A stretch of DNA of 52,037 nt, from the IMG/VR virus record IMGVR_UViG_3300025151_000050, positions 1 to 52,037 of that record, one strand, 5' to 3'. The DNA is from a virus (lineage: Duplodnaviria > Caudoviricetes). A model generated the notes under the pieces. That model did no database searches, was not told the origin of the DNA, and saw only the letters and a program-made list of their open reading frames with translations. Below, one piece after another: positions 11,566 through 28,877 of this stretch (positions are counted from its first letter, which is position 1; each line of letters opens with the position of its first letter). The translations under genes were made by a program, and so were the position numbers.

Positions 11566-13166
11566 TGGCAGATTTTATGGATGATTTAGTTAACATAATA
11601 AATGCTGGTGCAAATGCATATGATTCTTATGCAAGCTCTAAATTAGCAAGTGCGAATGCTAGAGCTGCTTCAAGAGAGCGTAGAGAAATGGCTGTTTTTC
11701 AAGATTCATTATTACGTGAACGACAAAATGATAAAATTGTTATTGATGCTTTAGAAGATAGATATAATGAATCAGTTAAAGAAATTAAAAGGTTAGATGC
11801 AGAAGCTACTAACCTTGGATTTGATTATGAGAGTTATTTAGGAACTATACCTGAAAACGAAAGAACTCAAGATATGCTTTCTGTTTTTGAAAATGAAACT
11901 GATTATCAAAATAAAACATTATTTGCAAGCGTAAAAGAAGCTAATGATATTGATACATTAAAGAAAAATCAAAAAGCTAGTACTGCTATGAATGAATGGA
12001 AAATTAGAGAAATAGGCAATCTTATTAACCAATATGAAGCTGGTGAAGCTGATGCTAAAATGATGGATACAGAAATGGGAATTAAAAGTATTCCTGATTA
12101 TTATGATTATCAAAATAAAGTAAAAGAATTTAGTGATAAATATTTAATGTCTGAAGATGATGTCAGAAGATTTCAATCTGAATTTATGGGCATGAAAGAA
12201 GGCGATGAAGGTTATGGTATTTTTGGACCTAAGACAACTAAAGCTTATGATGAACTAAATCGTGGACCTATGATTTCTTTAGATGCAGGTCCTGATGAAA
12301 TATTAGGTAGCCTTGACGATACTAGAAGAGGATTATCTGCTAGAGGTGCAGGATTAATGAGCGGTGCTCCTACTACTAAAGAGCAATTGCAATTAGAAAC
12401 TGCATTAACTAATCTTAAAAATAAAAAATTAACTGATGATGCTAAATCTGGTTCAATTGATTTTACTCAAGCAAGAAGTGAAAATTGGTCTAGTGTAAAT
12501 TCAGATATGAGAAGTTACGCTACTAATGTTGCACAACTTCAAGGCACTGGTAGTTTAAATGAAGACTATAGAGAAAAATTTGCATTTGATGCATCTATTA
12601 AATTTGACAAAGAAGGTGGATTTAATAGTAAAGAAGATTTAAAACAATTTAGAGATAGTTTAGGTCAAAAGCTTTTGCAAGTAGCTAAATGGGGAGATGA
12701 CTCTAGCTTGTCTGATGATTTAAGAAAAGCAGTAATAGCTGGTGATTTGCTTGATTTATCTAATAAATTAATACCAGATAATCCAAATGACATTGACCCA
12801 ATGACTGGAGTTAGTAAAAAATATTCTGGTAATTTATTTGACTTTGCAGGATTTAATGATATGGGTGTAAATGAAAATAGACATTTTGTAGAAAATTTAA
12901 AAATGTGGAAAAAAGCATACGACATAGAAGGTGATATTGATAAATTTGAATTAGGGTTATTAAAAACACAGGCAGAGCAAAACAAAAGATTATCTAATTT
13001 AATATTACCCTCTTATTCTCCTTCAGAATTTGGAAAAGATGATATTGCCCAATTAGATGCATTTTTACCAAAAGACCTTTCAGTCTATGACGATAAAGGC
13101 GGAATAGATTATGAGCAATTATCTAAAGTATTAGATATGATGAAACTTTTTAATTTTGGGAAATAA
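11565..13166 (+). CDS. Putative ejection protein
   Basis: TAATG coupling with GGAGG RBS, helical, no Cys. Confidence 0.6.
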   Translation: MADFMDDLVNIINAGANAYDSYASSKLASANARAASRERREMAVFQDSLLRERQNDKIVIDALEDRYNESVKEIKRLDAEATNLGFDYESYLGTIPENERTQDMLSVFENETDYQNKTLFASVKEANDIDTLKKNQKASTAMNEWKIREIGNLINQYEAGEADAKMMDTEMGIKSIPDYYDYQNKVKEFSDKYLMSEDDVRRFQSEFMGMKEGDEGYGIFGPKTTKAYDELNRGPMISLDAGPDEILGSLDDTRRGLSARGAGLMSGAPTTKEQLQLETALTNLKNKKLTDDAKSGSIDFTQARSENWSSVNSDMRSYATNVAQLQGTGSLNEDYREKFAFDASIKFDKEGGFNSKEDLKQFRDSLGQKLLQVAKWGDDSSLSDDLRKAVIAGDLLDLSNKLIPDNPNDIDPMTGVSKKYSGNLFDFAGFNDMGVNENRHFVENLKMWKKAYDIEGDIDKFELGLLKTQAEQNKRLSNLILPSYSPSEFGKDDIAQLDAFLPKDLSVYDDKGGIDYEQLSKVLDMMKLFNFGK

Positions 13167-16100
13167 TGGCAGAAGAAAAATATGGAATAGGCTTTAATCC
13201 TATTGAAGAAGAAGATGAAGCTGTAAGATTATTACGTAGCTTAGATTACATACAAAATCAAACAAAACCTTTAAATGACGATGAAAAGTTAATAAGTGGT
13301 GATAAAGAAAAGTATGTAAAGCTTCCAGAAGAAGAACCTGTTGTAGAGCAAATAGAACCTCAAGAAGAATCAGAAGAAAACCAACAATTATATAACTACG
13401 CAAATCAGTTCATAGAGGCACAAAATATTCCTATTGGTGATAGTGGCAAGCCTATAGTAAATCCTTCCGATATAGGGCTATTTTTAAAGCAAACAAACCC
13501 ATATGATAGAGAAATACAAGACTATGATGCTGATTTATTGGGTGATAAATGGCTTAGAGAAAATCCAAACCAAAAACAATTTGAGATATATGAAACTAGT
13601 CTCTCAGATGAATTAGCTTATACATTTAGAGAATTTGCTGATAATATTAAATTATCTGTACCTGCTTTTTTACAAATGGCAGCACAGCAATCTAATGAAT
13701 ATAGTTATTTAAATACTGTAAAATCATTAGTAGGAGAAGAACCTCAAGATATATTTGACGATGAAACAAATATTAAACTCCCAAGAGATAAAAAAATAGA
13801 TATAATAAACATGCTTCAAGATGCTAAAAAAGCTCAACTTGAAGAAAATAGAAAAGATGTTGAGTATATGGCATGGATGAGATATGCTGCTGACACACCT
13901 ATGTCAGAATGGGGTGAAGGGGTATGGGCAAGAAGTGCTGGTCGTTCAGTTTCTAATTTATTACTTCAATATCTTATTCCAACTGGAGCTGCTATAATAA
14001 CTAGAAATCCAAATGTAGGATTAGTTTCTAGCTTAGGATTAGGTTATTTATTAGAAGGCTCTAATCAAATGTCTAGTTCTATTGATTATTTAATGCAAGG
14101 TAAAGAAATATCTTTAGATGAATATAATAAAAAATTATCTTTATTTAGAAATACATGGTCCGAAGAATATAAAGAGCAGTTTGGGGAAGATATTAGTGAA
14201 AAGAAATTAAAATTAGATAGCGATACATGGACAAATAATAACTTTGATATGAGTCAATTAAGTAAAGGTATTATTAAAGAGTATGGCCATTCTAAAGAAG
14301 AAGCGTATGATATAGCATGGGTTGCTGCTAATACGTATGCAGTAGCTTCAACTAGTATTGAATTTTTCCCTGGAATGAGAATAATGAAAAGAGCTGCTGG
14401 TGTAGATAGAAAAATGATTGGACCTAAAACATATAGAGCTTCTTTATTTTCAACCATATTAAATAAAACATCTGATGCAACTAAGCGTATTGCTCAAAAA
14501 ACTGGACTTGCTACACGATTATCTACTCCAGCAATAGCAGCAAATGTTGGAAAGACAAGTATTTTAGAAGGAGCAACAGAGTGGATGCAGTATAATGCTG
14601 AAGTAGCTATTGAAACTATAGGTCCAGCAGCGTATAAAAGCGAATCTTTTTCAGAAGTATATGATTACAATACTGCATTAGAATCATTTGTAGGTGGAAT
14701 GATGGGTGGCGGTATAATGTCTTTGTCTACTGATATAGTAAATAAATCAGGAGCAATGCAAAGAGTAGCTAACTTTAGCAAGAAAATGTATCCAGGTCGT
14801 AATACTATTGTAGTTAAAAAAGACGATGATGGTAGATATAAACTTGTATTTAATGATAAGTTCCAAGGAGTTACAATTGGAGACCCTGAAGTTAGAAATC
14901 AATTACTACAAAGAAATTTCAAAAAAGAGTTATTAAGAGACGAACAAAATAATGAAATATCTTATTCTAACTTTAGAGAGGCATCAGAAGTTGCTAGTCA
15001 ATTAACTGATGAAATGAATAAGTTTGACAATCAAATCTTCTTACATAAAATGCAGTCTTATATAGGAGGTGAAGTAAAGATAGAGCAAACCTCTGAAGGC
15101 AAGTTTCAAGTAAATGCTTATAATAAAGAAGGTAAATTTATAAACACTATTGAAACTGCTGATACTAAAGTTGCTGCTAAAAAGACATTAAAGATAGCGT
15201 CACAAAATATAGTATCTATAAATAAATTAAATGAGCAGATTAGTGAAAAAGAAATGTCTGAAAATAGATTCTTGCAACAACTTAAGCAAGAAGAAAGCAC
15301 TACAGGCGTTAATGTAGATGTTAAAACATCTGAAGTTAAGAATAGAGGATTAATTAATAATAGAGATTTAAATACTGATATAAATATATTAAAAGCATTT
15401 AATCCTGATAGTGAAGTTAAAACAGAAGAAGAAAATGATGTTATCGATAAAGTTAACGATGATTATAACCTGCATGAAGATTCTAATATTATTAAAGAAA
15501 TTATAGAAGAGCGTGGTGGTAATGTTATATTGCATAGTGGACAAACTCCTGTTGAGTTTTTAAAAGAATATGAAGATACTTTTGGAGAAGATAGCCCTGA
15601 AAATGTAGAAGCTATACGAAATATTTTAATAGAAGATGAGTTGTTACCTCCTAGTGAAATGCCACAAGACAATGAATCTACTCCTGCAGAAAAAGTAGAA
15701 AAAGAAATTGAATTAGGCCCAGAAGGTGATGCTGTTTTAGATAGAACAGATATACCTATAACAACAGTAGATAGAGATGATAATACTGGACGTAATATAA
15801 ATATAGATAAAGGTGAAAAATTACCTATACAAAAAACTCCAAAGCCTAAGGCTAGTAAAAAACAAAAAGAATTATCTAGCTTAACAGATGAGCAATTAAA
15901 GTCTAGATTAGCTACATTAATATCAACTGAAAAAAAAGCTGGACTTCCATTAGCTAGTCAGAAAAAAGAATTATTAGACGAACTTAAAGCTAGAGGTATA
16001 GATGAAAAAGATTTAGATTTAAAACAAAAAATATCTCCACGTATTCTTGAAAAATTAGAAGCTAATAGGGAAAAATATATTGAAATTGTATTGCCAAAAG

Positions 16101-19100
16101 ACATAGATGGAGATGTAGAAGAGCGAATAAATTACAAAGAATTTGCTAAAGAACTATCTAGACTTATTAAAATAGATACTCCATCTAGTGATTTGCTTAC
16201 TAGAGACTTTATTGACAATTCTATAAAACCATTTTTTGATAAACGAATAGTTAATAGTAAAGGTGAAAAGTTATTTAACGTTAAAGAAGTAAACGACCCT
16301 CAAGTATTTAATAAGGGATGGTATGTACCTTCAGAAAAAACGCTATACATAAATACTGCCTATGCTACAAAAGATACTCCTTTTCATGAATTTGCACATC
16401 CTATATTAGAATACATGGATAAGCAAGACCCTAAAACTTTCGATAAATTATATGAAGAAATTTTAAATACTCCTGAAGGCAAAAAAGCACATAGCGTTGT
16501 AAAAGAACTATATCCTGTAGATTATCAAAATCAAACTGCTTTATTTAAACATGAAGTATTTGCTGAAGCTTTAGGTTATATGGGTAAAAAGAAGTACTTA
16601 AGTCCTGCTGATAAAACTTTATGGCAAAAAATAGTTGATTTTATTAAACAAGTATTTGGAATAAAGCCTGAGTCTTGGAGGTCTATGAAAGCTGATAAGG
16701 TTCTTACTGGCCCTAATGTTAGTATAGAAAAACTTGTAGAAGTTATATCTGACCCTACTAAAAAATATACATTAGAAGTTTTTACTGACGAAGAAAAATT
16801 AGCATCTATGCAAGATATACTGCTAACAATGCCAAATCCATCTCCTACAATGAATCCTACTATACCTCAAAGAATTTTAACTCCTGTATTTAGTGAGATA
16901 AAAGATGCTGAATCTAGTCAAAGAGAGTTTCTAGATGTTGTAGTGGGTGAAGCTTTAAATGAAGCATTAAGTAATTTACCTGATAATCTTACCGATAACG
17001 ATATATTTAATCTTAATAAGTCTATTTCTTTAGCTTTAGGTAAAAAATTAAAAACTATGCTTAAAATACCAAAGCGTTTATATAAAGGTAAAAAGTATAA
17101 AGTAGGAGATATTGATTCTCAAGTTGTAGATATATTAGACAATTCATATAAAGAATTATTCAGTCAGACATTAGTTAAGTCTGGATTGCAAAGTAAACTT
17201 TCTGGAGATGACATTAGTCCAAAATGGACAAATCCTTTGTTTACATATTCAGACGATAGAAAAACAATAACTTTAACTGCCGAAGGGTCAGCATTGCATG
17301 ATGTATTTAAAGCAGTGCAATTTAAGAATAGGGTATCAGAATTTTTAAGAAAGAAACAAATAAAGTTTTCTGTAAATGACATTAATGCAAAGTTTAGTAA
17401 ACAATCTGAATTTGGCAAAGAGAGTAAAGAAATACAAGAATTTCAAAAGTATTTAGATAAAAAAGATATTTTAAATGTTGATGGCAAAAGAATAAAATCT
17501 ATTGATTCATTTGAATTAGCAGAACATTTTGACACCTATATGGCAGAAAAGTATCCATTATTTTACGAATCGTTTCCCAAAAATTATGGAGTAGAAATAC
17601 ATAAAATATATAGAGATTATGAATTATCAGAGCAGATGAAAGAAAATAGTATAGCTAATAGAGTTGCATTTTTTGATAAAGCAACCACTCTACATAACTA
17701 CTTTTCATATCATGGAATGGGTAAAGGATATAAAGAAGGTCCAGCCTCTATTGATAATACTGCTCCTTTATTTTGGTATAGTTATGAGAAAACTCATGAT
17801 GGAGATATTGTATTATATGAATATCAAAGTGATATATTTGACAAAGATGTATCTACAGGATTAAGTTCAAATGATTTAATAAAAGATTTAAAAACCAAAG
17901 GAAGCGATTCTACAACTAGTGGATTTATATTAGAAAAAGCACTTGATGTATATTATGGAAAAAGCTCAGATGCTGTAGCTGATATGTTAAAATATGGATA
18001 TAGAATACCTCCTGTAATAAAAAGGATGATTAATTTTGAGTTTAAATTTAAAGATTTAATTAAATATGTCGATGAAACTGATGAGAATAAATCATTACTT
18101 ATAAAAAAGATAGTTGATAATAATTTAATGCCTATGTTTCATTTAGATGACTTAAGGAATAGTAATAAGAAAGAATTATTTAAACTATTAGGTAATCATG
18201 CATTTGATGTATTTAAAACTACTGGAGATTTTAATAAAGCTTTAAATAGCTATAAAGACATTTTATCATTCCAAGTTCCTGACGTTACTTCGTTTGATGA
18301 AAATAGGCAATTAAATAATTGGGAAAATATATTGCATGAGTTTAAAGTGTGGTCTTCATCTATGTCTGGATACAATGCTTATGGAGTTAATAAAATAGAT
18401 AATGAAATGTCAGTAGCTTTAATGCAAGATATTATTAATAATAAAGCTAACAAGGAAAGATATTATGAAATTTTAACTGCTATAAATAATGGAGAGCAAG
18501 TTGAAGGTGGTAATGAAGCAGCATTAATTGCTTTAAACGAAAACAAATATAGAGAAATATCTTCTCGATATCAAAGAATAAAAACAGAAGGACTTAATAA
18601 AGAAAAATCATCTAATGCATTAACTGAATTTATAAAAAGTTCAATTATAAATAATCCTTCTTTTATGGAAGCAACATTAATTAGATACAAGCGTAGTTCT
18701 GAAATCCCTAATTTAATGTATAAAGCATTAGCCATGTCAAAAAGATTTACAAAACAAGCTGAAGCTGAGTTTCAAAAAGGTTTAAGATTTGCTAATAATG
18801 CTAAATTTTTAACAAATGAAGTATTTTCAAGCAAAGAAGCATTACGTGCTTTTGCAGAAGCTGAATTTCAAGAATCTATTGTTAAATTTTTAAACATATA
18901 TATATCAAATAGAAGTTCTTCTGAAATAAAAAGCAAGGCTCTTGAATTAGCTAATGAAAAAAATCAAGTAAATGCAGAAAAAATAGCTAAAGAATTTAAG
19001 GTAATTAAAGATAGACACGATAAAATGATTAATCCTGTTGTGCAGTCAAGATATTTTGATTGGATTATTCGTCATTCAATTATAAATGCATCTCAATTAA

Positions 19101-22100
19101 TAGAAGAAGGAAAATCTATTTATTTAAATACAGGTGCAAGTATTCACAAACAAGAGCATTGGGATGAGCAAAATGACCCATTTCATATCTATAAGTCTCC
19201 AAATGAAAATAAATGGCATATTACTAAACAAATTTTAATGGACGATAGAGATGCCCTATTAAGACAGAAATTGTCTAAAATGTTTGCTAAAGATGGTTTA
19301 GAAGATAAATATAAAATGAATTTAGGTATGTTTTTAGATACCTTTACTACTTCTGGTCCTGGTTTATTAGGATATAAATATGAATATGGTGAAATTAATC
19401 CTTACGATAATAAAGATTATAGAGAGGTTCAAGATTGGCTATCTAATAATATAAAAAATGCAGTTTCTGTATATAAGCCAACTGAAAAAACTACCGTTGC
19501 TGGTTTTGATTATAAATATGAAGCAACTAAAAAGAGATTAGAAAATTGGAATAAAGTAGGACCATGGTATACAGCATTAACAAAAATTAAAAATTTAGGA
19601 CTTGAATATGTTACTCCAGAATGGTCATCAGTTCCTTTGCTTAAAGTAACTAAAATACCTTCTGACTTAACTCCTACATTTTATCAAAAAACTGTATTAG
19701 AGATAAGTGATGCAGAAGGAAATCCACAATCTTTATCAGATATTAAAGAACTAGCTAATCATTTATTGGAAAAAAGAAATCTTACAGCTAGAAAGAAAGA
19801 CAGAATATTTAAGAATGCATGGAAACAATTAAATGAAATCAAAGAAGGAATTGTTGCAGACCCACAAGAATTTAGAGTCGCAATGATAGATGGACTGCCT
19901 ATTGATATAAGAGATGATTTTGTTAAATGGTTTAAAGTTAATTTTAACAAAGATAAAATGCAGAAGATTAGAAGTAAAGAAGCGTTTGGGGAATCTCAAG
20001 AATATTTTCTAGATATAGAAGATGTTGCAAGTAATGTTATGACATATTTAAATGAAATGTCTGAAGGCTTAGATGACTTATCTAATAAAAAACAAACTAA
20101 TGAAAAAGAAATAGGTATTAATGAACTTACCTATTTTAGAGAGTTAGGTATAAATATAAGTCAAAATGAATTAAAATCAGTTAGAAAAGAAGCACATAAA
20201 ATAGATAGATTTGAAGACTGGTTAAAAGAAGTAGGTCCTAAATACTTTGCATTAGCTCCTTCTAAAATGGTTAATTGGAAGAAAAATGGATTGCAAAAAT
20301 ATTATTTAAGGATTAGAAGTAGTATTAGAGTAAATACATCTGAAGGTGTAAATAATGAACGAGACAATTTTAATGTAGAAATAGTTGATGAATGGATAGA
20401 CGGACAGTGGGTAGTTAAAGATTTTAAGATAGGATTAAAAGGCCCTGAAGACAAAAGCTCAGGCAAAAAGAATGCTACTTTTGAAAAAATAATGCCATTT
20501 GAATTTGTAGAAAAAGGTTTGTTTGGTTTTATATCTCCTAAAGACATGAGAGTTTCTAGAGCAAAAAAAGATGAAGACGGAGAATATGTTTTAGACAATA
20601 CAGGTAAAGCAGAAAGAGAACTTAAGGAAAGATATGGAAGTTTAACAGAACGTGAACTTTTACTGTTATCTAAAAGATTAGGAGAAAAAGACCTTGCCAT
20701 AGCATTTATGAGAGGTGAAGCAGGAAAGCTCGGTATTGTAAGGATTACTTCTGACCATAAAAATAAAGCTAAAAATGCTGATGATTACTTTGATTTAAAA
20801 GGAGTAAGCCCTGAAATGAAAGAAGAGCTTATGGGCAAAGGCTTAAAGTTTAAAGATAATAACGCTAGAATGCAATACATAGCTGCAGAGATTGCTGTCG
20901 TTGAAGCTATGGAAAAAGTATTCCCTGATTATTTAAATAGAAGTATAGCTAATGTATACAAAAGAATAAAGCTACCTTTTACACCAGCTACATTTTCTCA
21001 TGAAATGGAAGATATAAAATTAAGACGTATTAGTCCTGAAGAATTAAAAGATTTAAGATTTGTATATAACAATAAAACTAATACAGATGGTTTAAAGAAT
21101 GTTAAAGGAGTTGGCGTTAAATATATAGCAGACGGTGGTACTATTAATGGTAGAAATATATTTGAAAAGTTTTATAAAGGGTTTGGTTTAAAGAGAGGTA
21201 CAGCTAAAGGTAAGACTGTTATATATCATAATGATGGCTCAGGAAATGTTATTGCAGTAAAACATCAGCATTCTATGATGGAAAAACTTATGGATATCTA
21301 TGTAGGTGATAAGAGAATTGCTTATACAGATAAAAATGGTAATTTATTTTTAGACAATGGAAGTCCTATAGATATGCTAGCTACTGAAGATGAAATTAAA
21401 ATTTTAACGGGAGCTGGTAATTTATCTAATGAGATAATAGAAATACCAGGGAATGCAATAGGGTTTATAAAGTTTGATGAGCATACATCTACAAATGGTA
21501 AAACTGCTATTCAAGCATGGAATCATATTTATGATAGAAATTTAGTAAGTGCATTTAATCAGTTCATGGTGCCTCAAGCTGAAAAAGAAATTAGAAAAAT
21601 GATTTTACTTGCTGTAGATACTGTTAATTCTAAGTCTATAGATAAACAATTAGAATTATTAAAGATATTAGAAAATCAAGATTCTGAAGGATATATGCCA
21701 TCTGCATTAGAAATGGCTAAATTAGGAGCAGGTAATCATCCTTCTATGGCTCCTGTTTATAATAAACTTGTACAAAGACATATCATTGAACCTGGGGTGC
21801 AGTTATCTAAAGTTCCAGGCTCACGATTAGATTTTGCTCCTAACTTTAGAGGAGATTTAGATAGAGGTGAAGTAGCATTATCGATTCAGAATGCTAAAGC
21901 TATTAAAGAAAAATATGCTGAAATGAATGACATGAGTCTTTCTGATGTAGATAAATTATCAATGAAAGTTTTAAATGAATGGTTAGCAGATAATCCTATA
22001 TATATATTTGCATCTAGAAGTCCTATACCACACGTTGGTGGTGCGATGATGGCTAGAGTTAAAAGACTGCATGGAAGAAAGGGTCTTATTGAAATTAATA

Positions 22101-23500
22101 CCGATGATGTATTTGCTAGATTTGAAGGTGATTTTGATGGAGATGAGCTACACATAGAAGTTTTACCTCAAGGTATGGGACAGCCTATGTTAGAATTTTA
22201 TGACAACATAGCTAAAAATTTAAAAGGTATTAGCTTAGATAAGTTTGTTAATCCTAATAATAATGCTAATTTTAGTATAGGCAATAGACGAGATAGATTT
22301 AAAATTATGGAAGCGTTAGGTCATGGAAATAATGCCATGGGAGAAATATCTAATGTTCAAGGCGTTTACGGTCAAATGGTTCAAATGATAGAGTCAATAG
22401 AGTTGCCATATTCAGGTAAAAAAATTATGCTAAAGCAGCCTACTGATATAATAAAATGGAAGCCTTCTTATTATAAAGATGGAAAATGGTCTGGGAATAT
22501 TAGTGACTTTTTAAGAATAATGTTACAAGCAGCTTTTGATAATAATGAATTTATGCTACTAGGCGAATGGAATTATAATCAGGATGGTCTGTATAGATTT
22601 TTATTTAAAGATGAAAAAGGCAATCCAATTACTGAATTAGATTTTGATTTATTAAGACCATTATTAAAATTAATAAAATCTGCTCAAGACATAAGAAATG
22701 CTAAGACTTATGTTGATGGCCAATTTGATTTGCTTACTACTATGAGAAAAAGTTCAGAGCTAAATAATTTTATTGAACGACTTAATACTGGTATTGTAGG
22801 TGATTTAAAAATTAAAAAATATGATGATGCAGTTATGAGCCCTGTACAAAGCCTTGCAATACTGCCATATCGTTTATATCAGGAATATCTATCTAAATAC
22901 GAAAGAATAGGTGAAAATGGTACTCCATTCCACTTAAACCCTTATCTTCATTATAACGCCCATTTAGACGCTATGGAGCGTATTGATAAAGAAGAGTATG
23001 ATATGTTAGCACAGGCATTAACAGTAGATGGAGTAAATATAGAAGGAAGTGGTGCTTATATAAGACAGCAAGTATCTGAAGGCAATAAATACGCTATGAA
23101 AATGGGTAAGGAATTTTATCGCATATTAGGTGGAGTATCTAAAGCTGGTCCTCAAACTACAGATAGAAATGAAGATTTTATAGCATTTAAAGAACAATAT
23201 AATAAAGAATTTAAAGAATTGTCTAATACAGCACAAGTAGCTGCTACTATTAAGTTCTTAAAAGGAGTAACTATATGGAGAGAAAACATTGCAAAGAAAA
23301 AAACAAAGGCTCCTCATTATTTACCATCTGCTAGTAGGTCTAAAGCAGAATTTCAATTGCTTGATGCAAACGTATTAAGTAGATTCTTTAGATATTATAA
23401 TGAAATAACTAATGCTCCTGAGAATAGAGATTTAAGAGCATCTAAAAGAAAATTAAAATACACTCCTACAATGGATTTATTAAAAAGGTTTGGTTGTTAA
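13166..23500 (+). CDS. Giant ejection polyprotein with zincin protease and double-psi beta-barrel virion RNA polymerase
   Basis: HEFAH at 16385-16399 with downstream EVFAE. RNAP motifs KR, ADGG (21131), SRSP (22013), GDFDGD (22127-22144), MGEISN and QAAFDN. Confidence 0.85.
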   Translation: MAEEKYGIGFNPIEEEDEAVRLLRSLDYIQNQTKPLNDDEKLISGDKEKYVKLPEEEPVVEQIEPQEESEENQQLYNYANQFIEAQNIPIGDSGKPIVNPSDIGLFLKQTNPYDREIQDYDADLLGDKWLRENPNQKQFEIYETSLSDELAYTFREFADNIKLSVPAFLQMAAQQSNEYSYLNTVKSLVGEEPQDIFDDETNIKLPRDKKIDIINMLQDAKKAQLEENRKDVEYMAWMRYAADTPMSEWGEGVWARSAGRSVSNLLLQYLIPTGAAIITRNPNVGLVSSLGLGYLLEGSNQMSSSIDYLMQGKEISLDEYNKKLSLFRNTWSEEYKEQFGEDISEKKLKLDSDTWTNNNFDMSQLSKGIIKEYGHSKEEAYDIAWVAANTYAVASTSIEFFPGMRIMKRAAGVDRKMIGPKTYRASLFSTILNKTSDATKRIAQKTGLATRLSTPAIAANVGKTSILEGATEWMQYNAEVAIETIGPAAYKSESFSEVYDYNTALESFVGGMMGGGIMSLSTDIVNKSGAMQRVANFSKKMYPGRNTIVVKKDDDGRYKLVFNDKFQGVTIGDPEVRNQLLQRNFKKELLRDEQNNEISYSNFREASEVASQLTDEMNKFDNQIFLHKMQSYIGGEVKIEQTSEGKFQVNAYNKEGKFINTIETADTKVAAKKTLKIASQNIVSINKLNEQISEKEMSENRFLQQLKQEESTTGVNVDVKTSEVKNRGLINNRDLNTDINILKAFNPDSEVKTEEENDVIDKVNDDYNLHEDSNIIKEIIEERGGNVILHSGQTPVEFLKEYEDTFGEDSPENVEAIRNILIEDELLPPSEMPQDNESTPAEKVEKEIELGPEGDAVLDRTDIPITTVDRDDNTGRNINIDKGEKLPIQKTPKPKASKKQKELSSLTDEQLKSRLATLISTEKKAGLPLASQKKELLDELKARGIDEKDLDLKQKISPRILEKLEANREKYIEIVLPKDIDGDVEERINYKEFAKELSRLIKIDTPSSDLLTRDFIDNSIKPFFDKRIVNSKGEKLFNVKEVNDPQVFNKGWYVPSEKTLYINTAYATKDTPFHEFAHPILEYMDKQDPKTFDKLYEEILNTPEGKKAHSVVKELYPVDYQNQTALFKHEVFAEALGYMGKKKYLSPADKTLWQKIVDFIKQVFGIKPESWRSMKADKVLTGPNVSIEKLVEVISDPTKKYTLEVFTDEEKLASMQDILLTMPNPSPTMNPTIPQRILTPVFSEIKDAESSQREFLDVVVGEALNEALSNLPDNLTDNDIFNLNKSISLALGKKLKTMLKIPKRLYKGKKYKVGDIDSQVVDILDNSYKELFSQTLVKSGLQSKLSGDDISPKWTNPLFTYSDDRKTITLTAEGSALHDVFKAVQFKNRVSEFLRKKQIKFSVNDINAKFSKQSEFGKESKEIQEFQKYLDKKDILNVDGKRIKSIDSFELAEHFDTYMAEKYPLFYESFPKNYGVEIHKIYRDYELSEQMKENSIANRVAFFDKATTLHNYFSYHGMGKGYKEGPASIDNTAPLFWYSYEKTHDGDIVLYEYQSDIFDKDVSTGLSSNDLIKDLKTKGSDSTTSGFILEKALDVYYGKSSDAVADMLKYGYRIPPVIKRMINFEFKFKDLIKYVDETDENKSLLIKKIVDNNLMPMFHLDDLRNSNKKELFKLLGNHAFDVFKTTGDFNKALNSYKDILSFQVPDVTSFDENRQLNNWENILHEFKVWSSSMSGYNAYGVNKIDNEMSVALMQDIINNKANKERYYEILTAINNGEQVEGGNEAALIALNENKYREISSRYQRIKTEGLNKEKSSNALTEFIKSSIINNPSFMEATLIRYKRSSEIPNLMYKALAMSKRFTKQAEAEFQKGLRFANNAKFLTNEVFSSKEALRAFAEAEFQESIVKFLNIYISNRSSSEIKSKALELANEKNQVNAEKIAKEFKVIKDRHDKMINPVVQSRYFDWIIRHSIINASQLIEEGKSIYLNTGASIHKQEHWDEQNDPFHIYKSPNENKWHITKQILMDDRDALLRQKLSKMFAKDGLEDKYKMNLGMFLDTFTTSGPGLLGYKYEYGEINPYDNKDYREVQDWLSNNIKNAVSVYKPTEKTTVAGFDYKYEATKKRLENWNKVGPWYTALTKIKNLGLEYVTPEWSSVPLLKVTKIPSDLTPTFYQKTVLEISDAEGNPQSLSDIKELANHLLEKRNLTARKKDRIFKNAWKQLNEIKEGIVADPQEFRVAMIDGLPIDIRDDFVKWFKVNFNKDKMQKIRSKEAFGESQEYFLDIEDVASNVMTYLNEMSEGLDDLSNKKQTNEKEIGINELTYFRELGINISQNELKSVRKEAHKIDRFEDWLKEVGPKYFALAPSKMVNWKKNGLQKYYLRIRSSIRVNTSEGVNNERDNFNVEIVDEWIDGQWVVKDFKIGLKGPEDKSSGKKNATFEKIMPFEFVEKGLFGFISPKDMRVSRAKKDEDGEYVLDNTGKAERELKERYGSLTERELLLLSKRLGEKDLAIAFMRGEAGKLGIVRITSDHKNKAKNADDYFDLKGVSPEMKEELMGKGLKFKDNNARMQYIAAEIAVVEAMEKVFPDYLNRSIANVYKRIKLPFTPATFSHEMEDIKLRRISPEELKDLRFVYNNKTNTDGLKNVKGVGVKYIADGGTINGRNIFEKFYKGFGLKRGTAKGKTVIYHNDGSGNVIAVKHQHSMMEKLMDIYVGDKRIAYTDKNGNLFLDNGSPIDMLATEDEIKILTGAGNLSNEIIEIPGNAIGFIKFDEHTSTNGKTAIQAWNHIYDRNLVSAFNQFMVPQAEKEIRKMILLAVDTVNSKSIDKQLELLKILENQDSEGYMPSALEMAKLGAGNHPSMAPVYNKLVQRHIIEPGVQLSKVPGSRLDFAPNFRGDLDRGEVALSIQNAKAIKEKYAEMNDMSLSDVDKLSMKVLNEWLADNPIYIFASRSPIPHVGGAMMARVKRLHGRKGLIEINTDDVFARFEGDFDGDELHIEVLPQGMGQPMLEFYDNIAKNLKGISLDKFVNPNNNANFSIGNRRDRFKIMEALGHGNNAMGEISNVQGVYGQMVQMIESIELPYSGKKIMLKQPTDIIKWKPSYYKDGKWSGNISDFLRIMLQAAFDNNEFMLLGEWNYNQDGLYRFLFKDEKGNPITELDFDLLRPLLKLIKSAQDIRNAKTYVDGQFDLLTTMRKSSELNNFIERLNTGIVGDLKIKKYDDAVMSPVQSLAILPYRLYQEYLSKYERIGENGTPFHLNPYLHYNAHLDAMERIDKEEYDMLAQALTVDGVNIEGSGAYIRQQVSEGNKYAMKMGKEFYRILGGVSKAGPQTTDRNEDFIAFKEQYNKEFKELSNTAQVAATIKFLKGVTIWRENIAKKKTKAPHYLPSASRSKAEFQLLDANVLSRFFRYYNEITNAPENRDLRASKRKLKYTPTMDLLKRFGC

Positions 23501-26500
23501 TGGCTAATAAATGCGATACAGGTAAAGCAGGATTTGATAATTTAAATAACGATAATGAAGCTCGGAACAAAATATCAGCTGCTGATGCTGATAAAAAAGT
23601 TAAAGCTACAGGGCGTTTATTAGAACGTGAAAATATTGTATCAGAATTAGAAAAAAACAACAAACCTAATTCTATTATTAAAGAGAAAGATTTAGACAAC
23701 GCTATTAAAGCTGTATTTGGTAAAGATGAAAGAAAAGTTTTATTACACAAAATTGACTCTTTATTTCATACAAATGAAATGATGCGACCTGTACTTGAAG
23801 ATATAATAAGAGAACATGTTGTTGTACATCAAAAAACAGGTGGTATAAAAGATTTTAATAAGTTAGGTCTTGAAGCATTAACGCCTAGTAGTTTAAAAGT
23901 TGTTTATAGAGAAATGAATAATTTTTTAGCTGCTACTAATGTAGGTGATAAAAAAGGAAATTATGCTGTAGGATTAATTAAGCATTTTAAAGTAAAACTA
24001 TATACTCCAAAAACTTCAGGTAAGACTGTATATGCAGATAAAGATGGTTCATTTTTTAAATTTGCTGATGAAATAACAAGACTGCATGAGAGAATATCGT
24101 ATCGTATTAATGAGTTTATGTTTAAACCAAAGACATGGAAATCTAAAAGACAATATGGTATGAATGACATATTAACTAGCTTAAGAAATTTAGCAGATGA
24201 TATTCCTTTAAATCAGCGTAAAGAGATTGAAAGACCTGATGAAAAAATAGTTACTATATGGTCGTGGATGATGGGTGGTAGAGTTTTTATAGGACCTAAA
24301 ACAATTAAAGTAGATGATAAAGATGTACCTAATCCTAATGTAGGTAAATTAATGATTTATCAAGAAAGAGCTTCTACTGGTAAGAAATATAAAGAGACTG
24401 ATGACCTTATATTTGCATGGCAAGACCCTGTTCTTTTATCTGAATATAAAAACGGAGAGTTTGCAATACCTTTTAGCTCTACAATGTTTAATAATTTATT
24501 AAAATTAGTTGAAAAAGGTAGAGTTGTAGACAATGAAATGCTTGATTATATGAATGAAAGGCATCCTAAGTCTGTAAAAGCAATAGAAGTAGCAATGAAA
24601 AAACTATTTAAAGGATTAACTGGAGTTGAAATTACTAATATATTGTGGAAACCTGAAAGCAAGGAAGCTCTTGCTGCTTTAAATAAGCTTTCTGACAATC
24701 AAAAAGTTTTATATAAAAAACTATTAGATGCATTTCAAGGGTATGCTTTATTAGAACCTTCTATTTACAATGGTCAGGTAGCTCAAAAAAAAGAAAATCA
24801 CTTTCCTGTGCAATATCAAAAAGAAATTATGCCTTATTTAATAGATAATTATATTTCTAGAAGAGAAAGTGAACTTTTTGACAAAAAAGGTGAGCTTGAA
24901 ATATCTACAGGCAAGGAACGAAAAGTTATTAAAAAAGAAATATCTGATTTAAAATCTAATATATCTAGAGCTCAATTTATACGTGATAGAATAGATGGTT
25001 ATCCGTTAGATACTAGCCAAAACATTATACTTCCTATAGCTAAGGATAATAAATTTGTTAAAAGAATTACAAATGCATTCCCTCATGAAGCTATGAGAAC
25101 AGATGGTGGTGTTTATTATACATATTCAAAACATATTATGTCTGGTATACAACGTAACTTTTTAACAGCACAGCTTATAGAATCTCTAGCAACTGCAGGT
25201 AATGAAAAAATACAAGATGCATTAATTAATTACTACAAAGTTCCATTTAATAAGCCTGATGTTAAAACTAATATTTTAGGTACATATACTTCTGTAGAAA
25301 ATATATCTAGACGATTAGGTAGTATTAACATAAATATTACTCCTGAAATGTTAAGCAGAAGAATAGGAACACTTAATTCGTGGGTTACAGCTAATTATTT
25401 ATCAGGACTGGGAACAACTGTACAAAATTTTACAGCTATAAATCAAAACATTATTGACCATAGCTGGGGGTCATTAAGAGATGCACAAGACTCATGGTCT
25501 AAATACAAAAAAGAATGGACTGAACTTATAAATGAATCAGGTATAGTAGAGTTCCAAGACTTTTTTAGTAAATCGATGATTAATGACCTTGCTAATCAAG
25601 AGTTAGAGGATAAAACTTCTGAAACTTTATTGGCATCTATGTTACAATATCACGCTGAAAAGAAAAAAATAGGTGAACCTAAAGCTAGAGAAAACTTTGA
25701 AAGCAACATAGCTAGAGCTTTAAAAGAATCAGCTTTATTTGACCAAAATATTGTTATTCTAGATGAATCAGAAATTAAACAACGTTCTAAAGAAAGAAAG
25801 TCTGAACGTAATAGAAGAATAATAAACAAAATGGTTCAATTTGCTATTAATAAAGAATTTGAATTTAATAGGCATATAAAAGGATGGAAAGTAGTTCCTT
25901 ATACTGCATTAGGAGCTTACCTTAAAACATGGACTGCAATTGCATCTAATATGGGTGTTTTAGGAAGCATGGGCTCTACTGAAGGTTATATAAGAAGTAT
26001 GAGTTTTATTATAGGAGTGCAAACAGCACAAAAGAATGGATATATTAGAGATGATATTCAGCCATGGAAAAATAAGGATGAATTAGGAGCTATTATTGAA
26101 ATAGGTAGAACATTTTCTAGGTTTACTAATTTTGGATTATCAACTACTGATGTAGGAGAAGGTTCTTATGGTAGAATAGGCAATTTAAATATGAAGTTTA
26201 AATACTGGTCTCAACAAAAGTTTGGTAGGGATGTGCGTATTATAAAAAACGCAATTACTTCAATGCAAGATATAGATAAGATAAGTAAAGGTAAAAGTGC
26301 TAATCCATTTTTTAATCCAAAAGAAGTTTTAAAGATATTGAAGCTTATGTTATCACCTAAATATATGGGGAAAGGTTCTGATGCATTAAGAAAAGTTAAT
26401 CCTGAAGTTGCAGCATTAAGAAACTTTTTATTTATACAAGGTATTATGACAATATTATTTGATTTTTTTATATTTGGACCATTATTATTACCTGGATATC

Positions 26501-26835
26501 TAGGAAGACAATTAGCTATAGGTCCTACTAAATATTTAAGAGGAATGGGAAGTGATTTATTATCATTAAGTATGATAGTACCAATGCTTGCATTAATGGC
26601 GTATATGGGAGATGATGAGGAAGAAGATGTAGAAAGAACTCTTACTCAATATTTAAGAAGAACTTATATTGGATATTTGCCTATGATGGCTTGGGATTAC
26701 ATAGTATTTTTATTTTACTTACTAAATGATAATACCAGTGGAGTAGCTAAACAAGCTGGCAACATTACAAGAGCATTGCCAGGTGGTAAATATGCGGGGC
26801 CTGTAGTTAGAGAAGCAATAGAAGCAGCTGAATAG
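23500..26835 (+). CDS. Large ejection protein with C-terminal membrane segments (T7 gp16-like role)
   Basis: TAATG-coupled ATG at 23500. Helical, with several hydrophobic C-terminal segments. Last gene of the late block. Confidence 0.65.
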   Translation: MANKCDTGKAGFDNLNNDNEARNKISAADADKKVKATGRLLERENIVSELEKNNKPNSIIKEKDLDNAIKAVFGKDERKVLLHKIDSLFHTNEMMRPVLEDIIREHVVVHQKTGGIKDFNKLGLEALTPSSLKVVYREMNNFLAATNVGDKKGNYAVGLIKHFKVKLYTPKTSGKTVYADKDGSFFKFADEITRLHERISYRINEFMFKPKTWKSKRQYGMNDILTSLRNLADDIPLNQRKEIERPDEKIVTIWSWMMGGRVFIGPKTIKVDDKDVPNPNVGKLMIYQERASTGKKYKETDDLIFAWQDPVLLSEYKNGEFAIPFSSTMFNNLLKLVEKGRVVDNEMLDYMNERHPKSVKAIEVAMKKLFKGLTGVEITNILWKPESKEALAALNKLSDNQKVLYKKLLDAFQGYALLEPSIYNGQVAQKKENHFPVQYQKEIMPYLIDNYISRRESELFDKKGELEISTGKERKVIKKEISDLKSNISRAQFIRDRIDGYPLDTSQNIILPIAKDNKFVKRITNAFPHEAMRTDGGVYYTYSKHIMSGIQRNFLTAQLIESLATAGNEKIQDALINYYKVPFNKPDVKTNILGTYTSVENISRRLGSININITPEMLSRRIGTLNSWVTANYLSGLGTTVQNFTAINQNIIDHSWGSLRDAQDSWSKYKKEWTELINESGIVEFQDFFSKSMINDLANQELEDKTSETLLASMLQYHAEKKKIGEPKARENFESNIARALKESALFDQNIVILDESEIKQRSKERKSERNRRIINKMVQFAINKEFEFNRHIKGWKVVPYTALGAYLKTWTAIASNMGVLGSMGSTEGYIRSMSFIIGVQTAQKNGYIRDDIQPWKNKDELGAIIEIGRTFSRFTNFGLSTTDVGEGSYGRIGNLNMKFKYWSQQKFGRDVRIIKNAITSMQDIDKISKGKSANPFFNPKEVLKILKLMLSPKYMGKGSDALRKVNPEVAALRNFLFIQGIMTILFDFFIFGPLLLPGYLGRQLAIGPTKYLRGMGSDLLSLSMIVPMLALMAYMGDDEEEDVERTLTQYLRRTYIGYLPMMAWDYIVFLFYLLNDNTSGVAKQAGNITRALPGGKYAGPVVREAIEAAE

Positions 26836-27021
26836 TTAAGCTTGAGCATAATTCAGTAATTTCTTTCTTTCTCTTAATGTAACATGAACTTTTATTTTAT
26901 CTTTATTATCCAAAGAATCATAATCACAATTCACAAATAATTTTGAAAGCATAGTGTCTAAGATAACTACTTTAGCCATAACTTGCATTTGTTCTTGATA
27001 TATTCGTTCCTTATAAGTCAA
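26836..27021 (-). CDS. Hypothetical protein
   Basis: TTG start with AGGAG upstream. Last gene of the - strand block. Confidence 0.55.
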   Translation of the reverse strand: MTYKERIYQEQMQVMAKVVILDTMLSKLFVNCDYDSLDNKDKIKVHVTLRERKKLLNYAQA

Positions 27022-27361
27022 TTTTATCTCCTTTTATTAAATTTAAAAAGCTATCTATTTCAATAGCAGCATATGTTTTACTTCTATTTCGTTTAAAAAT
27101 AAGCACAGGTGTTCTATCATTACAATTTTCTTCTGCTTGTTCTAATGAAGACCATATATTTAGTCGTTCTTGATTTTTACATTCAAAACTATATGGTATA
27201 AGTTTTCTTGCAGCAGGAGAAAGTTTTATATCCTCACCTGACTCTCCCATAATAGCTGACTTTATATCATCTTCTTCTAAACTGCTAAATAAACTTCTTA
27301 ATTTGTCTCTTACGAAATCTTGAAGTTTTCTACCTTTAGCTTTTTTTGATGCAGTCTTCAT
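27011..27361 (-). CDS. PD-(D/E)XK nuclease, Holliday junction resolvase-like
   Basis: AKGRKLQ...GESGEDI...SFECKNQE...PVLIFKRNR. The start at MKTASKK is preferred. Confidence 0.85.
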   Translation of the reverse strand: MKTASKKAKGRKLQDFVRDKLRSLFSSLEEDDIKSAIMGESGEDIKLSPAARKLIPYSFECKNQERLNIWSSLEQAEENCNDRTPVLIFKRNRSKTYAAIEIDSFLNLIKGDKIDL

Positions 27362-27542
27362 ATAATAATACCCTATCAAGCCTTCTATTAGTTACTCTTT
27401 TAAATTCTCTTAACTTACATTCATTAACTATTTCATCAACTCCATCTTTCAGTAATTTCTCTATTGAAAGCAAAGCTTCTCTTGTAAGCTGAATTTCTGA
27501 GTCTCTAAAGGCTTCTCTTATATATTTTTTAGATATACCCAT
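27336..27542 (-). CDS. Histone-fold-like small protein
   Basis: 68 aa with short helix, loop IQLTREA, long helix, loop FKRVT and short helix, the spacing of a prokaryotic histone fold. Confidence 0.6.
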   Translation of the reverse strand: MGISKKYIREAFRDSEIQLTREALLSIEKLLKDGVDEIVNECKLREFKRVTNRRLDRVLLYEDCIKKS

Positions 27543-27742
27543 TACATTCCCATTCTATTTCTTATTCTATCAAAAATACTTTTTCTTTCTTCATGTTCTT
27601 TGCTAACTTTAATTAACTCTGCAGCCATTTGAGTAATATCAACTTCAATTCTCTCTAAATCTTGACCAAGCTTACTAACTTTATCAAATAATTTATCAAT
27701 ATCAATTGAAGGTGTTTTAGTTTCTTTTTTTGCTTTTGTCAT
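27542..27742 (-). CDS. Small coiled-coil protein
   Basis: AAGGAG RBS and heptad pattern. Confidence 0.7.
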   Translation of the reverse strand: MTKAKKETKTPSIDIDKLFDKVSKLGQDLERIEVDITQMAAELIKVSKEHEERKSIFDRIRNRMGM

Positions 27743-27848: not shown

Positions 27849-27887
27849 TTAATCTCTCCATATTTTTTAATAATATATTTTCTTAGT

Positions 27888-28787: not shown

Positions 28788-28877
28788 GACAACACCATCC
28801 CTGGCATTACCTAAATCTCTTCATATCTTATAAGATATCCACATATCATAGATAATAATGTAAGATATTATTAATAG

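What the first reader, a model, noticed from the sequence alone, without database searches (positions are those of the whole stretch)
20900..23500. Single-chain double-psi beta-barrel virion RNA polymerase inside a 3444-aa ejection protein
Seen, in order: VYKRIKL, ADGG (D2656), GTAKG/AVKH/EIK lysine candidates, SRSPIPH (R2951), FEGDFDGDEL (D2989-D2993), MGEISN and QAAFDN. Known: this order is the core of two-barrel polymerases. RxP and DxDGD are shared with the beta' subunit, and the single-chain arrangement occurs in RNAi RdRPs (QDE-1), YonO and crAss-like virion RNAPs. Inference: the phage injects its own RNAP to transcribe the leftward early operon. A compact genome with SD-led genes and GDFDGD rather than the DFDID reported for phi14:2 suggests a lineage distinct from crAss-like phages.
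Basis: partly seen in the sequence, partly recalled or inferred. Interest (0 to 1): 0.92.

Follow-up and report, generated by a model that had tools for sequence, protein, structure and literature searches.

The report
Giant phage protein with RNA-polymerase signature
The last third of a 3444-residue phage structural-operon protein carries the invariant catalytic residues of two-barrel RNA polymerases, so it is probably a polymerase delivered with the phage DNA, in an uncultured phage group unrelated to crAss-like phages.

Summary
ORF 13166-23500 (+) encodes 3444 aa, and all eight motifs sit at the stated residues.

The C-terminal ~1200 aa form a conserved module. It has 209 representative homologues at E<=1e-3 and 32 related IMG/VR loci on contigs of 17.5-59 kb.

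RxP (R2951, P2953) and D2989/D2991/D2993 are invariant in 65 of 65 aligned sequences. D2656, K2683 and K2699 are invariant wherever that region is present. These match, in order, the eight residues said to define two-barrel RNAPs (PMC2919709).

Two downstream motifs align with the bridge helix and trigger loop of phi14:2 gp66, with matching spacing. Nearest named ESM Atlas clusters are PF05183 RdRP, YonO-like.

No HMM or profile search gives a significant link to any known polymerase.

The capsid, portal and terminase genes are not crAss-type. Virion delivery and early-operon transcription are inferred from gene position only.

Verdict: probably a new family of virion two-barrel RNAP. This is a new variant of a known kind.

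The parts
13166..23500 (+). Giant ORF of 3444 aa (P0001). It is the penultimate gene of the rightward structural block. Its start overlaps the stop of ORF 11565-13166, and its stop overlaps the start of the next gene.
16385..16399 (+). HEFAH (residues 1074-1078), a zincin-like HExxH motif inside the conserved N-terminal module (about residues 1000-1230)
   Evidence: located the motif. One search showed (P)FHExxHP kept in 14 homologous stretches from 14 proteins. By analogy, phi14:2 gp65 is described as zincin-like (bioRxiv 10.1101/2020.03.07.982082, section 8), and an HEIMH motif was found in phi14:2 gp076.
19898..23497 (+). Conserved C-terminal module (residues 2245-3444), the putative polymerase
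   Evidence: One search gave the coverage profile of homologues. One search found 209 representatives at E<=1e-3.
20954..21400 (+). Putative beta-like barrel motifs: R2600 (58/58), D2656-G2657 (59/59), G2674 (59/59), K2683 (59/59), K2699 (60/60), E2743 and K2745 (61/61)
   Evidence: The assignment of D2656, K2683 and K2699 to the universal Asp and two basic residues is by order only and is not structurally verified.
22016..22024 (+). R2951-S-P2953, the RxP motif of the beta'-like barrel
   Evidence: 65/65 and 49/49. It lies 38 residues before the first Asp, against 39 in gp66 and 43 in YonO.
22130..22144 (+). D2989-F-D2991-G-D2993, the putative Mg-binding loop
   Evidence: All three Asp are kept in 65/65. 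The fourth residue is G in 47, H in 14, and N, A and I in 1 each. All 32 IMG/VR loci keep the motif.
22337..22354 (+). MGEISN (family consensus AIGEIAN), a bridge-helix-like motif
   Evidence: It aligns to GVGITAN (starting at 1546) inside gp66's bridge helix 1529-1559. It also aligns to the YonO family consensus NIGeiSN.
22526..22543 (+). QAAFDN (Q3121 64/64, D3125 65/65), a trigger-loop-like motif
   Evidence: It aligns to AFVDNAKD (starting at 1609) inside gp66's trigger loop 1598-1636. The spacing from the previous motif is 62 residues here and 60 in gp66.
23500..26835 (+). Downstream 1111-aa gene with no family hit. It is the last gene before the convergent leftward block.
   Evidence: It is syntenic in 27 of 32 related loci and has no PHROG or Pfam hit. 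Its position matches that of gp076 in phi14:2.

Best explanation
Residues ~2245-3444 of the 3444-aa protein, with a catalytic core at ~2590-3130, form a single-chain two-barrel (beta-like plus beta'-like) nucleotide polymerase. It belongs to the clade that holds YonO, QDE-1/RDR enzymes and crAss-like gp66.

Proposed mechanism, inferred from the homologous residues of known enzymes: D2989, D2991 and D2993 hold the catalytic Mg2+. R2951 and P2953 position the incoming NTP and the RNA 3' end. D2656, K2683 and K2699, from the first barrel, complete the site. The AIGEIAN and QAAVDN segments act as bridge helix and trigger loop.

The gene is co-directional and translationally coupled with the late structural genes. 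It is fused to a zincin-like HExxH module, as in crAss-like polyproteins. The protein is therefore most likely packaged in the virion, ejected with the DNA, and used to start phage transcription before any phage protein is made.

My odds: polymerase domain about 0.85, virion-packaged and ejected about 0.65, transcribes the leftward replication block about 0.45.

Shown: motif presence, invariance, order and spacing, family size and synteny. Inferred: fold, activity, template, packaging and target genes.
For: 1. The ORF and all motifs are present.
2. The family is large, with 209 representatives at E<=1e-3 and 85 at E<=1e-30. Many are proteins of 2000-4447 aa with the module at the C-terminus.
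3. Invariant columns coincide with the two-barrel signature. R2951, P2953, D2989, D2991 and D2993 are kept in 65/65. D2656 and K2683 are kept in 59/59 and K2699 in 60/60. PMC2919709 (sections 8-9) defines the superfamily by exactly these residues: three Asp, RxP, one Asp and two basic residues.
4. The signature is specific, with 0 hits outside this family and YonO in 262,230 ORF residues.
5. The bridge-helix plus trigger-loop segment aligns to the crAss-like profile. hhalign gave score 24.8 and E 6.7e-4, and 0 of 30 column shuffles reached it (max 17.1). Spacings are 38 vs 39 for RxP to DxDxD, and 62 vs 60 for bridge helix to trigger loop.
6. In the ESM Atlas, 23 of 30 hits and 29 of 30 named hits are PF05183 RdRP clusters from viruses and Bacillota. 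Scores were 0.92-0.93, with 178-186 of 256 features shared.
7. The layout matches phi14:2: giant RNAP gene, then one more large virion gene, then a convergent replication block (vs 1, 56). A zincin-like motif sits in the same protein block (bioRxiv 10.1101/2020.03.07.982082, section 8).
8. The same accessory domains (SF1 helicase, DUF7831, cpYpsA) are fused to homologues in both families.
Against: No significant sequence or profile link to any known polymerase was found:
- Pfam and PHROGs gave 0 hits.
- PF05183 and PF00623 gave no match in the genome at E<=10.
- PDB phmmer and profile searches gave no polymerase.
- tblastn against 50,697 phage records gave no match.
- Full-length hhalign against the crAss-like profile gave E 0.081, and against YonO E 0.17.
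- The beta'-barrel segment scored 17.9 against a shuffle maximum of 19.6. The beta-barrel segment scored 12.1 against a maximum of 16.5.

The same method also fails on a known pair. CrAss-like against YonO scored 27.0 (E 0.063), against 27.3 for this family against crAss-like. Reversed controls scored 19-23.

Other weaknesses:
- The Atlas 'recognition' values (1507, 1808) are below the 2300 level at which a high score counts as strong.
- K2683 and K2699 are 16 residues apart, against 5-8 in known enzymes (PMC2919709).
- No hydrophobic segment typical of membrane-inserting ejection proteins was found.
- There are no virion proteomics, no isolate and no known host.
- No repeated promoter-like element was found in the leftward block.
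Confidence: 0.68

Rival explanations
1. It is a two-barrel RNA polymerase but is not packaged. It is made in the infected cell and transcribes middle or late genes, as YonO does for SPbeta. The giant N-terminal part has another role.
For: The nearest named Atlas clusters are YonO-like PF05183 proteins. The bridge-helix motif IGEI(S/A)N is nearly identical to the YonO family consensus. YonO is named DNA-directed RNA polymerase by NCBI. That it is non-virion is recalled, not checked here. The giant protein has no strongly hydrophobic segment.
Against: The gene is the penultimate gene of the structural block and is translationally coupled to its neighbours. A polymerase needed before late expression would have to be carried in. 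Its size and position mirror phi14:2 gp66 and its neighbours. It is fused to a zincin-like module, as described for virion polyproteins of crAss-like phages (bioRxiv 10.1101/2020.03.07.982082, section 8).
Confidence: 0.15
2. The C-terminal module is not a polymerase. It is another Mg-dependent enzyme, or a structural ejection domain whose acidic loop and RxP are conserved for a different reason.
For: No HMM, profile or PDB sequence search links it significantly to any polymerase. The fold could not be predicted. Two of three segment alignments do not beat shuffled controls.
Against: All eight universal two-barrel positions can be filled, in the right order, by residues invariant in 59-65 sequences. 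The co-linear bridge-helix and trigger-loop match to gp66 beats 30 of 30 shuffles. Atlas neighbours are almost only RdRP clusters. The signature has no background hits. The known pair crAss-like and YonO is equally undetectable by the same method.
Confidence: 0.1
3. It is a two-barrel enzyme used for something other than mRNA synthesis, for example priming or helping replication of the ejected genome, or RNA-templated RNA synthesis.
For: No DNA polymerase gene was recognised in the genome. Only a primase-helicase and a Sak4-like protein were found. QDE-1-type enzymes act on ssDNA and RNA (bioRxiv 10.1101/2020.03.07.982082, section 9). PolD is a two-barrel DNA polymerase (PMC10770324, passages).
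Against: The phage has its own primase-helicase. The motif set, including RxP and bridge-helix and trigger-loop-like blocks, is that of RNAPs. Every characterised phage example read about here transcribes phage genes.
Confidence: 0.05

Closest known systems
crAss-like virion RNAP, phi14:2 gp66 (GenBank gp077, P0152; 2180 aa)
   Same: Both are single-chain and part of a giant virion-block protein. RxP lies 38-39 residues before DxDxD. The bridge-helix (G..G..AN) and trigger-loop (A.VDN.K) motifs are co-linear, 60-62 residues apart. In both genomes the gene is followed by one more large gene and then a convergent replication block. A zincin-like HExxH module sits in the same block. Homologues carry the same fused accessory domains.
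   Different: There is no significant profile similarity (E 0.081). The fourth motif residue is G or H here, against I or V in crAss-like phages (bioRxiv section 7). The Mg loop is 64 residues from the bridge-helix motif here and 181 in gp66. The RNAP is C-terminal in a 3444-aa fusion. The genome is 52 kb rather than about 100 kb. TerL, portal and MCP fall in different PHROGs. Many genes here have SD sites.
YonO of SPbeta and YonO-like PF05183 proteins
   Same: YonO has a DxDGD-type loop (DNDGD), and DNDGD also occurs in members of this family. RSPH...G follows the Arg in both. The IGEI(S/A)N motif lies 57-69 residues after the loop. These are the nearest named clusters in the ESM Atlas.
   Different: YonO is a free-standing protein of about 840 aa in a 134-kb temperate phage and lies outside the structural operon. 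hhalign is not above reversed controls (23.6 vs 21.0 and 22.8). PF05183 does not match here.
N4-type virion RNAP (Schitoviridae gp50, about 3500 aa)
   Same: Both are giant (~3400-3500 aa) proteins of a podovirus-type genome, proposed to be ejected to start transcription. TerL of this phage has weak tblastn matches (23-26% identity) to cobavirus, ICP2 and N4-like phages.
   Different: That the N4 enzyme has a T7-like single-subunit fold is recalled, not tested here. No sequence match to any phage record was found. The catalytic motifs here are of the two-barrel type.
P23-45 gp96, a tape-measure-fused virion two-barrel RNAP
   Same: A DFDGD-bearing two-barrel RNAP fused into a giant virion protein and found by searching virion proteins for DxDxD (PMC10770324, passages).
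   Different: In P23-45 the RNAP is N-terminal, in a siphovirus tape measure, and a second non-virion RNAP is present. Here it is C-terminal, and no second RNAP was recognised.

Membership tests
Two-barrel (double-psi beta-barrel) RNA polymerase superfamily | Invariant DxDxD Mg-binding loop | tested here: met
   D2989, D2991 and D2993 are kept in 65/65 aligned sequences and in all 32 IMG/VR loci.
Two-barrel (double-psi beta-barrel) RNA polymerase superfamily | Invariant Arg-x-Pro upstream of the loop (Rpb1 R446/P448; Qde1 R962/P964; PMC2919709) | tested here: met
   R2951 and P2953 are kept in 65/65. They lie 38 residues before D2989, against 39 in gp66, 43 in YonO and 45 in Qde1 (PMC2919709, section 8).
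Two-barrel (double-psi beta-barrel) RNA polymerase superfamily | Invariant Asp and two basic residues in the first (beta-like) barrel, placed before the RxP | tested here: inconclusive
   Candidates D2656 (59/59), K2683 (59/59) and K2699 (60/60) are in the right order. The Lys-Lys spacing is 16 against 5-8 in known enzymes. R2600, E2743 and K2745 are also invariant. The assignment needs a structure. The segment hhalign was not above shuffles (12.1 vs a maximum of 16.5).
Two-barrel (double-psi beta-barrel) RNA polymerase superfamily | Two double-psi beta-barrel folds facing each other | not testable with these tools
The Atlas holds no model of this protein.
Two-barrel (double-psi beta-barrel) RNA polymerase superfamily | Bridge helix and trigger loop after the second barrel | tested here: met
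   A single 81-column hhalign alignment matches residues 3043-3128 (segment columns 9-94) to columns 8-91 of the gp66 1525-1640 segment, which holds the bridge helix and trigger loop of the crAss-like profile. It scored 24.8 with E 6.7e-4, and 0 of 30 shuffles reached it. The segments were chosen after seeing the motifs, so the E-value is optimistic.
Two-barrel (double-psi beta-barrel) RNA polymerase superfamily | Significant sequence or profile similarity to a recognised member | tested here: not met
   The positive control crAss-like vs YonO fails equally (27.0, E 0.063). PMC10770324 (section 12) states that families share little beyond the DxDxD region.
crAss-like (Crassvirales) virion RNAP, gp66 family | DFDxD with Ile or Val at the fourth position (bioRxiv 10.1101/2020.03.07.982082, section 7) | tested here: not met
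   The fourth residue is G in 47, H in 14, and N, A and I in 1 each, of 65.
crAss-like (Crassvirales) virion RNAP, gp66 family | Detectable homology to gp66 orthologues, and a Crassvirales genome backbone | tested here: not met
   hmmsearch in both directions gave a best E of 0.012-0.017 on small local databases. MCP, portal and TerL fall in PHROGs 1328/156/38 here, against 11589/6547/6681 in phi14:2. tblastn of the 26 window ORFs of >=150 aa against phi14:2 bases 45,265-100,000 gave nothing at E<=0.01.
YonO / PF05183 RdRP family | Match to Pfam PF05183 | tested here: not met
   There was no match at E<=10 in the genome or by hmmscan. YonO's own phage record also gave no match at E<=1, so the model is insensitive. 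The Atlas features point to this family as the nearest one.
N4-type (T7-like) virion RNAP | Sequence similarity to single-subunit T7-like RNAP families | tested here: not met
   Pfam and PHROGs gave 0 families on P0001. tblastn against phages, which include N4-like genomes, gave no match.

The most novel reading that the evidence does not exclude
This is an undescribed family of virion-delivered two-barrel RNA polymerases. It defines an uncultured group of phages with contigs up to 59 kb, a podovirus-type backbone unrelated to Crassvirales, and probably non-Bacteroidota hosts that use SD sites.

It keeps the canonical DxDGD loop and a short loop-to-bridge-helix distance. It would therefore be the most 'cellular-looking' link between YonO, QDE-1 and crAss-like vRNAPs. 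It would show that injecting a two-barrel polymerase, fused to a zincin-like module and swappable cargo domains, is a widespread phage strategy that arose or spread beyond crAss-like phages.
Probability: 0.5. Interest if true: 0.75.

Novelty: new variant of a known kind. Interest (0 to 1): 0.62.

Why it matters
Virion-delivered two-barrel RNAPs are known from crAss-like phages and, fused to a tape measure, from P23-45.

A third, sequence-unrelated family would show that this infection strategy is not a crAss peculiarity. This one sits in small podovirus-type genomes, with a canonical DxDGD loop and a compact core.

It would also add a deep branch to the phage and plasmid single-subunit clade from which eukaryotic RNAi polymerases are proposed to derive. 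The ~1200-aa enzyme is compact enough for structural and biochemical study.

At present neither Pfam nor PHROGs matches it, and no source named any of the 9 homologues listed.

Tried and rejected
Searches and tests that led nowhere:
- Pfam and PHROGs on the whole protein gave 0 families.
- Pfam on 32 family members gave only accessory domains.
- PDB sequence search with the protein gave nothing. Profiles A2 and A3 gave only low-complexity or chance hits and no polymerase.
- tblastn of both halves of the protein against 50,697 phage records gave no match.
- PF05183 and PF00623 against the genome gave none.
- hhalign of the family profile against single gp66 and single YonO sequences was not significant.
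- hhalign against family profiles built here from 46 crAss-like and 76 YonO-like sequences gave E 0.081 and 0.17.
- Reversed-profile controls scored 19-23, and the known pair crAss-like vs YonO scored 27.0. Full-length hhalign without secondary structure therefore cannot decide.
- Segment tests: the beta'-barrel segment aligned RxP and DxDxD correctly but scored below the best shuffle, and the beta-barrel segment was at null level.
- YonO segments aligned only 17 and 9 columns, just above 40 shuffles. The combined segment was not above them (20.0 vs a maximum of 21.7).
- hmmsearch between the two families in both directions gave only E>0.01.
- A search for a repeated promoter-like element or hairpin in 26.7-39.4 kb found only SD-region repeats. 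Sigma-70-like sites were at shuffle level, 71 against a mean of 72.
- There are no terminal repeats, no tRNA genes and no hydrophobic segments in the giant protein.

Readings rejected:
- Membership of Crassvirales.
- An N4-type T7-like RNAP.

Literature:
- Searches listed no paper describing this family.
- The list of 23 two-barrel families in PMC10770324 is in a figure and in Supplementary Data 3. I could not see either, so the family may already be catalogued there.
Full report
**What is there**

The window is a whole virus record of 52,037 bp. It is classed linear, is estimated 93% complete and has about 31% GC.

One rightward block runs from terminase small subunit (39271) through terminase large subunit, portal and major capsid protein. 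It continues from the start of the record through a metallophosphoesterase (700), several large unknown genes and a methyltransferase, up to 26835. A leftward block (about 38.5 to 26.8 kb) holds a primase-helicase, a Sak4-like ATPase and small ORFs.

ORF 13166-23500 (+) encodes 3444 aa. It is the penultimate gene of the rightward block. Its start overlaps the previous stop, and its stop overlaps the next start.

**The family**

A full HMMER scan of 1.84 billion representatives with residues 2479-3444 found 209 proteins at E<=1e-3 and 85 at E<=1e-30. Many are 2000-4447 aa long with the match at their C-terminus.

Local phmmer with the whole protein shows the shared module spans about 2200-3444. 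A second, less widely shared module covers about 200-1200. The middle (1250-2200) is almost unique.

IMG/VR holds 32 related loci on contigs of 17.5 to 59 kb, 12 of them over 50 kb. The giant gene is followed by a homologue of the 1111-aa gene in 27 of 32. The convergent primase-helicase block follows in 18-19 of 32.

The word-indexed search found 9 long homologues, none named by any source.

**Conservation**

In a 49-row alignment (query plus 48 homologues), RxP and DxDxD are kept in every row.

In the 65-row alignment A1, trimmed to the query, the fully invariant columns are:
- R2951, P2953, D2989, D2991, D2993 and D3125, each in 65/65
- R2600 (58/58)
- D2656, G2657, G2674 and K2683 (59/59)
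- K2699 (60/60)
- E2743 and K2745 (61/61)
- Q3121, H3266 and the last residue C3444 (64/64)

The fourth residue of the acidic loop is G in 47, H in 14, and N, A and I in one each.

The pattern R.P.{30,50}D.D.D has 35 hits in 262,230 residues of ORFs >=100 aa from all DNA held. All 35 are in this family's giant proteins or in YonO.

**Comparison with the definition of two-barrel polymerases**

Ruprich-Robert and Thuriaux (PMC2919709; abstract and sections 8-9 read) define the superfamily by eight invariant residues:
- the three Asp of the Mg loop
- an Arg-x-Pro upstream in the same barrel
- one Asp and two basic residues in the other barrel

In Qde1 the order along the chain is D709, R738, K743, R962, P964, D1007/1009/1011.

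Here invariant residues fill the same order: D2656, K2683, K2699, R2951, P2953, D2989/2991/2993. The second-barrel part is firm. The first-barrel assignment is by order only. The Lys pair is 16 residues apart rather than 5-8, and other invariant charged residues (R2600, E2743, K2745) are nearby.

**Comparison with phi14:2 gp66**

I fetched the 2180-aa protein (KC821624, 45265-51807, minus strand). The preprint (abstract, sections 7-9 and passages read) gives these landmarks: connector 1095-1238, DFDID 1361-1365, bridge helix 1529-1559 and trigger loop 1598-1636.

GVGITAN (starting at 1546) lies in the bridge helix, and AFVDNAKD (starting at 1609) in the trigger loop. The family consensus here reads G..AIGEIAN and LQAAVDN.K.

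Spacings compare as follows:

| Interval | This protein | gp66 | YonO |
|---|---|---|---|
| Bridge-helix motif to trigger-loop motif | 62 | 60 | not measured |
| RxP to first Asp | 38 | 39 | 43 |
| Acidic loop to bridge-helix motif | 64 | 181 | about 57 |

Segment hhalign gave three results:
- Bridge helix plus trigger loop: one 81-column alignment, score 24.8, E 6.7e-4, above all 30 column shuffles (max 17.1).
- Second barrel: RxP aligned on RxP and DxDxD on DFDID, but score 17.9 is below the best shuffle (19.6).
- First barrel: at null level (12.1 against a maximum of 16.5). It did pair K2683, K2699 and D2742..K2745 with Lys and Asp-Lys positions of gp66.

I chose the segments after seeing the motifs, so these E-values are optimistic.

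**Comparison with YonO**

I fetched YonO from the SPbeta record. Its sequence reads LRSPHL...DNDGD...NIGEYSN...IDFAK.

A profile of 76 YonO-like proteins aligned only the 17 columns round the acidic loop and the 9 columns of IGEI(S/A)N. Each was just above 40 shuffles. The combined segment was not.

**Global searches were negative**

- Pfam, PHROGs, PDB sequences, phage tblastn and targeted PF05183/PF00623 searches gave no polymerase.
- Full-length hhalign gave 27.3 (E 0.081) against crAss-like and 23.6 against YonO.
- Reversed controls gave 19-23.
- The two known polymerase families scored 27.0 (E 0.063) against each other.

The method therefore cannot see even the known relationship. PMC10770324 (section 12 read) says these families share little beyond the DxDxD region. 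The negatives weigh little, but they mean homology is not statistically shown.

**An independent lead**

The ESM Atlas feature search put PF05183 RdRP clusters from viruses and Bacillota in 23 of the 30 best hits for residues 2245-3444. For residues 2580-3145 they were 29 of the 30 best named hits. Scores were 0.92-0.93, with 178-186 of 256 features shared. The tool's own 'recognition' values were low (1507, 1808), so this is a lead and not proof.

**Is it virion-delivered?**

This is inference. The arguments for it are:
- The gene sits at the end of the structural block and is coupled to its neighbours. A polymerase expressed late is useful for early transcription only if it is packaged.
- The layout matches phi14:2. 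There the MS-verified virion proteins gp078, gp077 (the RNAP) and gp076 end the structural block, facing a convergent replication block.
- The preprint (section 8) says these three proteins are fused into one polyprotein in some crAss-like phages, and that one carries a zincin-like protease domain.
- The giant protein here has a conserved (P)FHExxHP motif at 1074, kept in 14 homologues. phi14:2 gp076 has HEIMH.
- Homologues in both families carry the same kinds of fused accessory domains.

The arguments against it are:
- There is no hydrophobic segment.
- There are no proteomics.
- There is no promoter-like repeat in the leftward block.

**Not a crAss-like phage**

- TerL matches cobavirus, ICP2 and N4-like phages at 23-26% identity.
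- MCP matches CRP-810 and 119X-type podoviruses.
- Portal matches one Aeromonas phage weakly.
- PHROG families differ from those of phi14:2 for all three genes. Only the metallophosphoesterase family (phrog_221) is shared.
- SD-like sites precede 16 of 26 ORF starts.

**Verdict**

The polymerase reading is well supported by invariant-residue logic and partly by alignment, but fold and activity are untested. Delivery and target genes are plausible inference.

It is best filed as a new family within the known kind 'single-chain two-barrel phage RNAP'. It is not a member of the crAss-like or YonO families.

Literature searches listed no description of it. The supplementary family lists of PMC10770324 could not be seen.

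Noticed in passing
window 34684-35388 (-): This 234-aa protein in the leftward block has C-terminal 60 residues matching Pfam RNA_pol_A_CTD, the C-terminal domain of the bacterial RNAP alpha subunit (E 3.4e-17, 62 bits, cut-off 23.8). It may redirect or mimic part of the host RNAP, which bears on how middle and late genes are transcribed.
   Followed up: no
window 16385-16399 (residues 1074-1078 of the giant protein): A zincin-like HExxH motif (HEFAH), within a conserved block (T-PFHEFxHP), is kept in 14 homologues. It may be a self-processing or cell-wall protease, as proposed for gp65 of phi14:2.
   Followed up: partly
window 23495-23497 and 22961-22963 (C3444, H3266): The very last residue of the giant protein is a Cys kept in 64 of 64 homologues, and H3266 is also invariant. 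I have no explanation.
   Followed up: no
window 28750-28768: A perfect 8-bp, G+C-rich hairpin (7 G-C pairs) scores as a terminator on both strands inside the leftward block. It separates the small ORFs at 26.8-28.5 kb from the replication genes.
   Followed up: no
window 26800-38600: No DNA polymerase gene was recognised anywhere. The genes found were a primase-helicase (29693-31438), a Sak4-like AAA_24 protein (32063-32818), DUF932 (28878-29693), a spore-photoproduct-lyase-like radical SAM protein (33493-34392) and a PDDEXK nuclease (27011-27379).
   Followed up: partly
window 8119-8670 (+): A small methyltransferase matching rRNA adenine dimethylase and Methyltransf_25 models sits inside the structural block.
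   Followed up: no
homologues P0393-P0396 and members of A3; crAss-like homologues P0169-P0271: The giant proteins of this family and those of the crAss-like vRNAP family carry the same kinds of fused extra domains: SF1 helicase (AAA_30/PIF1/UvrD_C_2), DUF7831 and cpYpsA. One member of this family carries HATPase_c instead. This suggests a shared repertoire of cargo modules on ejected polymerases.
   Followed up: partly
window 700-1458 (+); L001 18229-19152 (-): A metallophosphoesterase of PHROG 221 lies in the structural block both here and in phi14:2 (gp086). It is the only gene family found shared between the two phages.
   Followed up: partly
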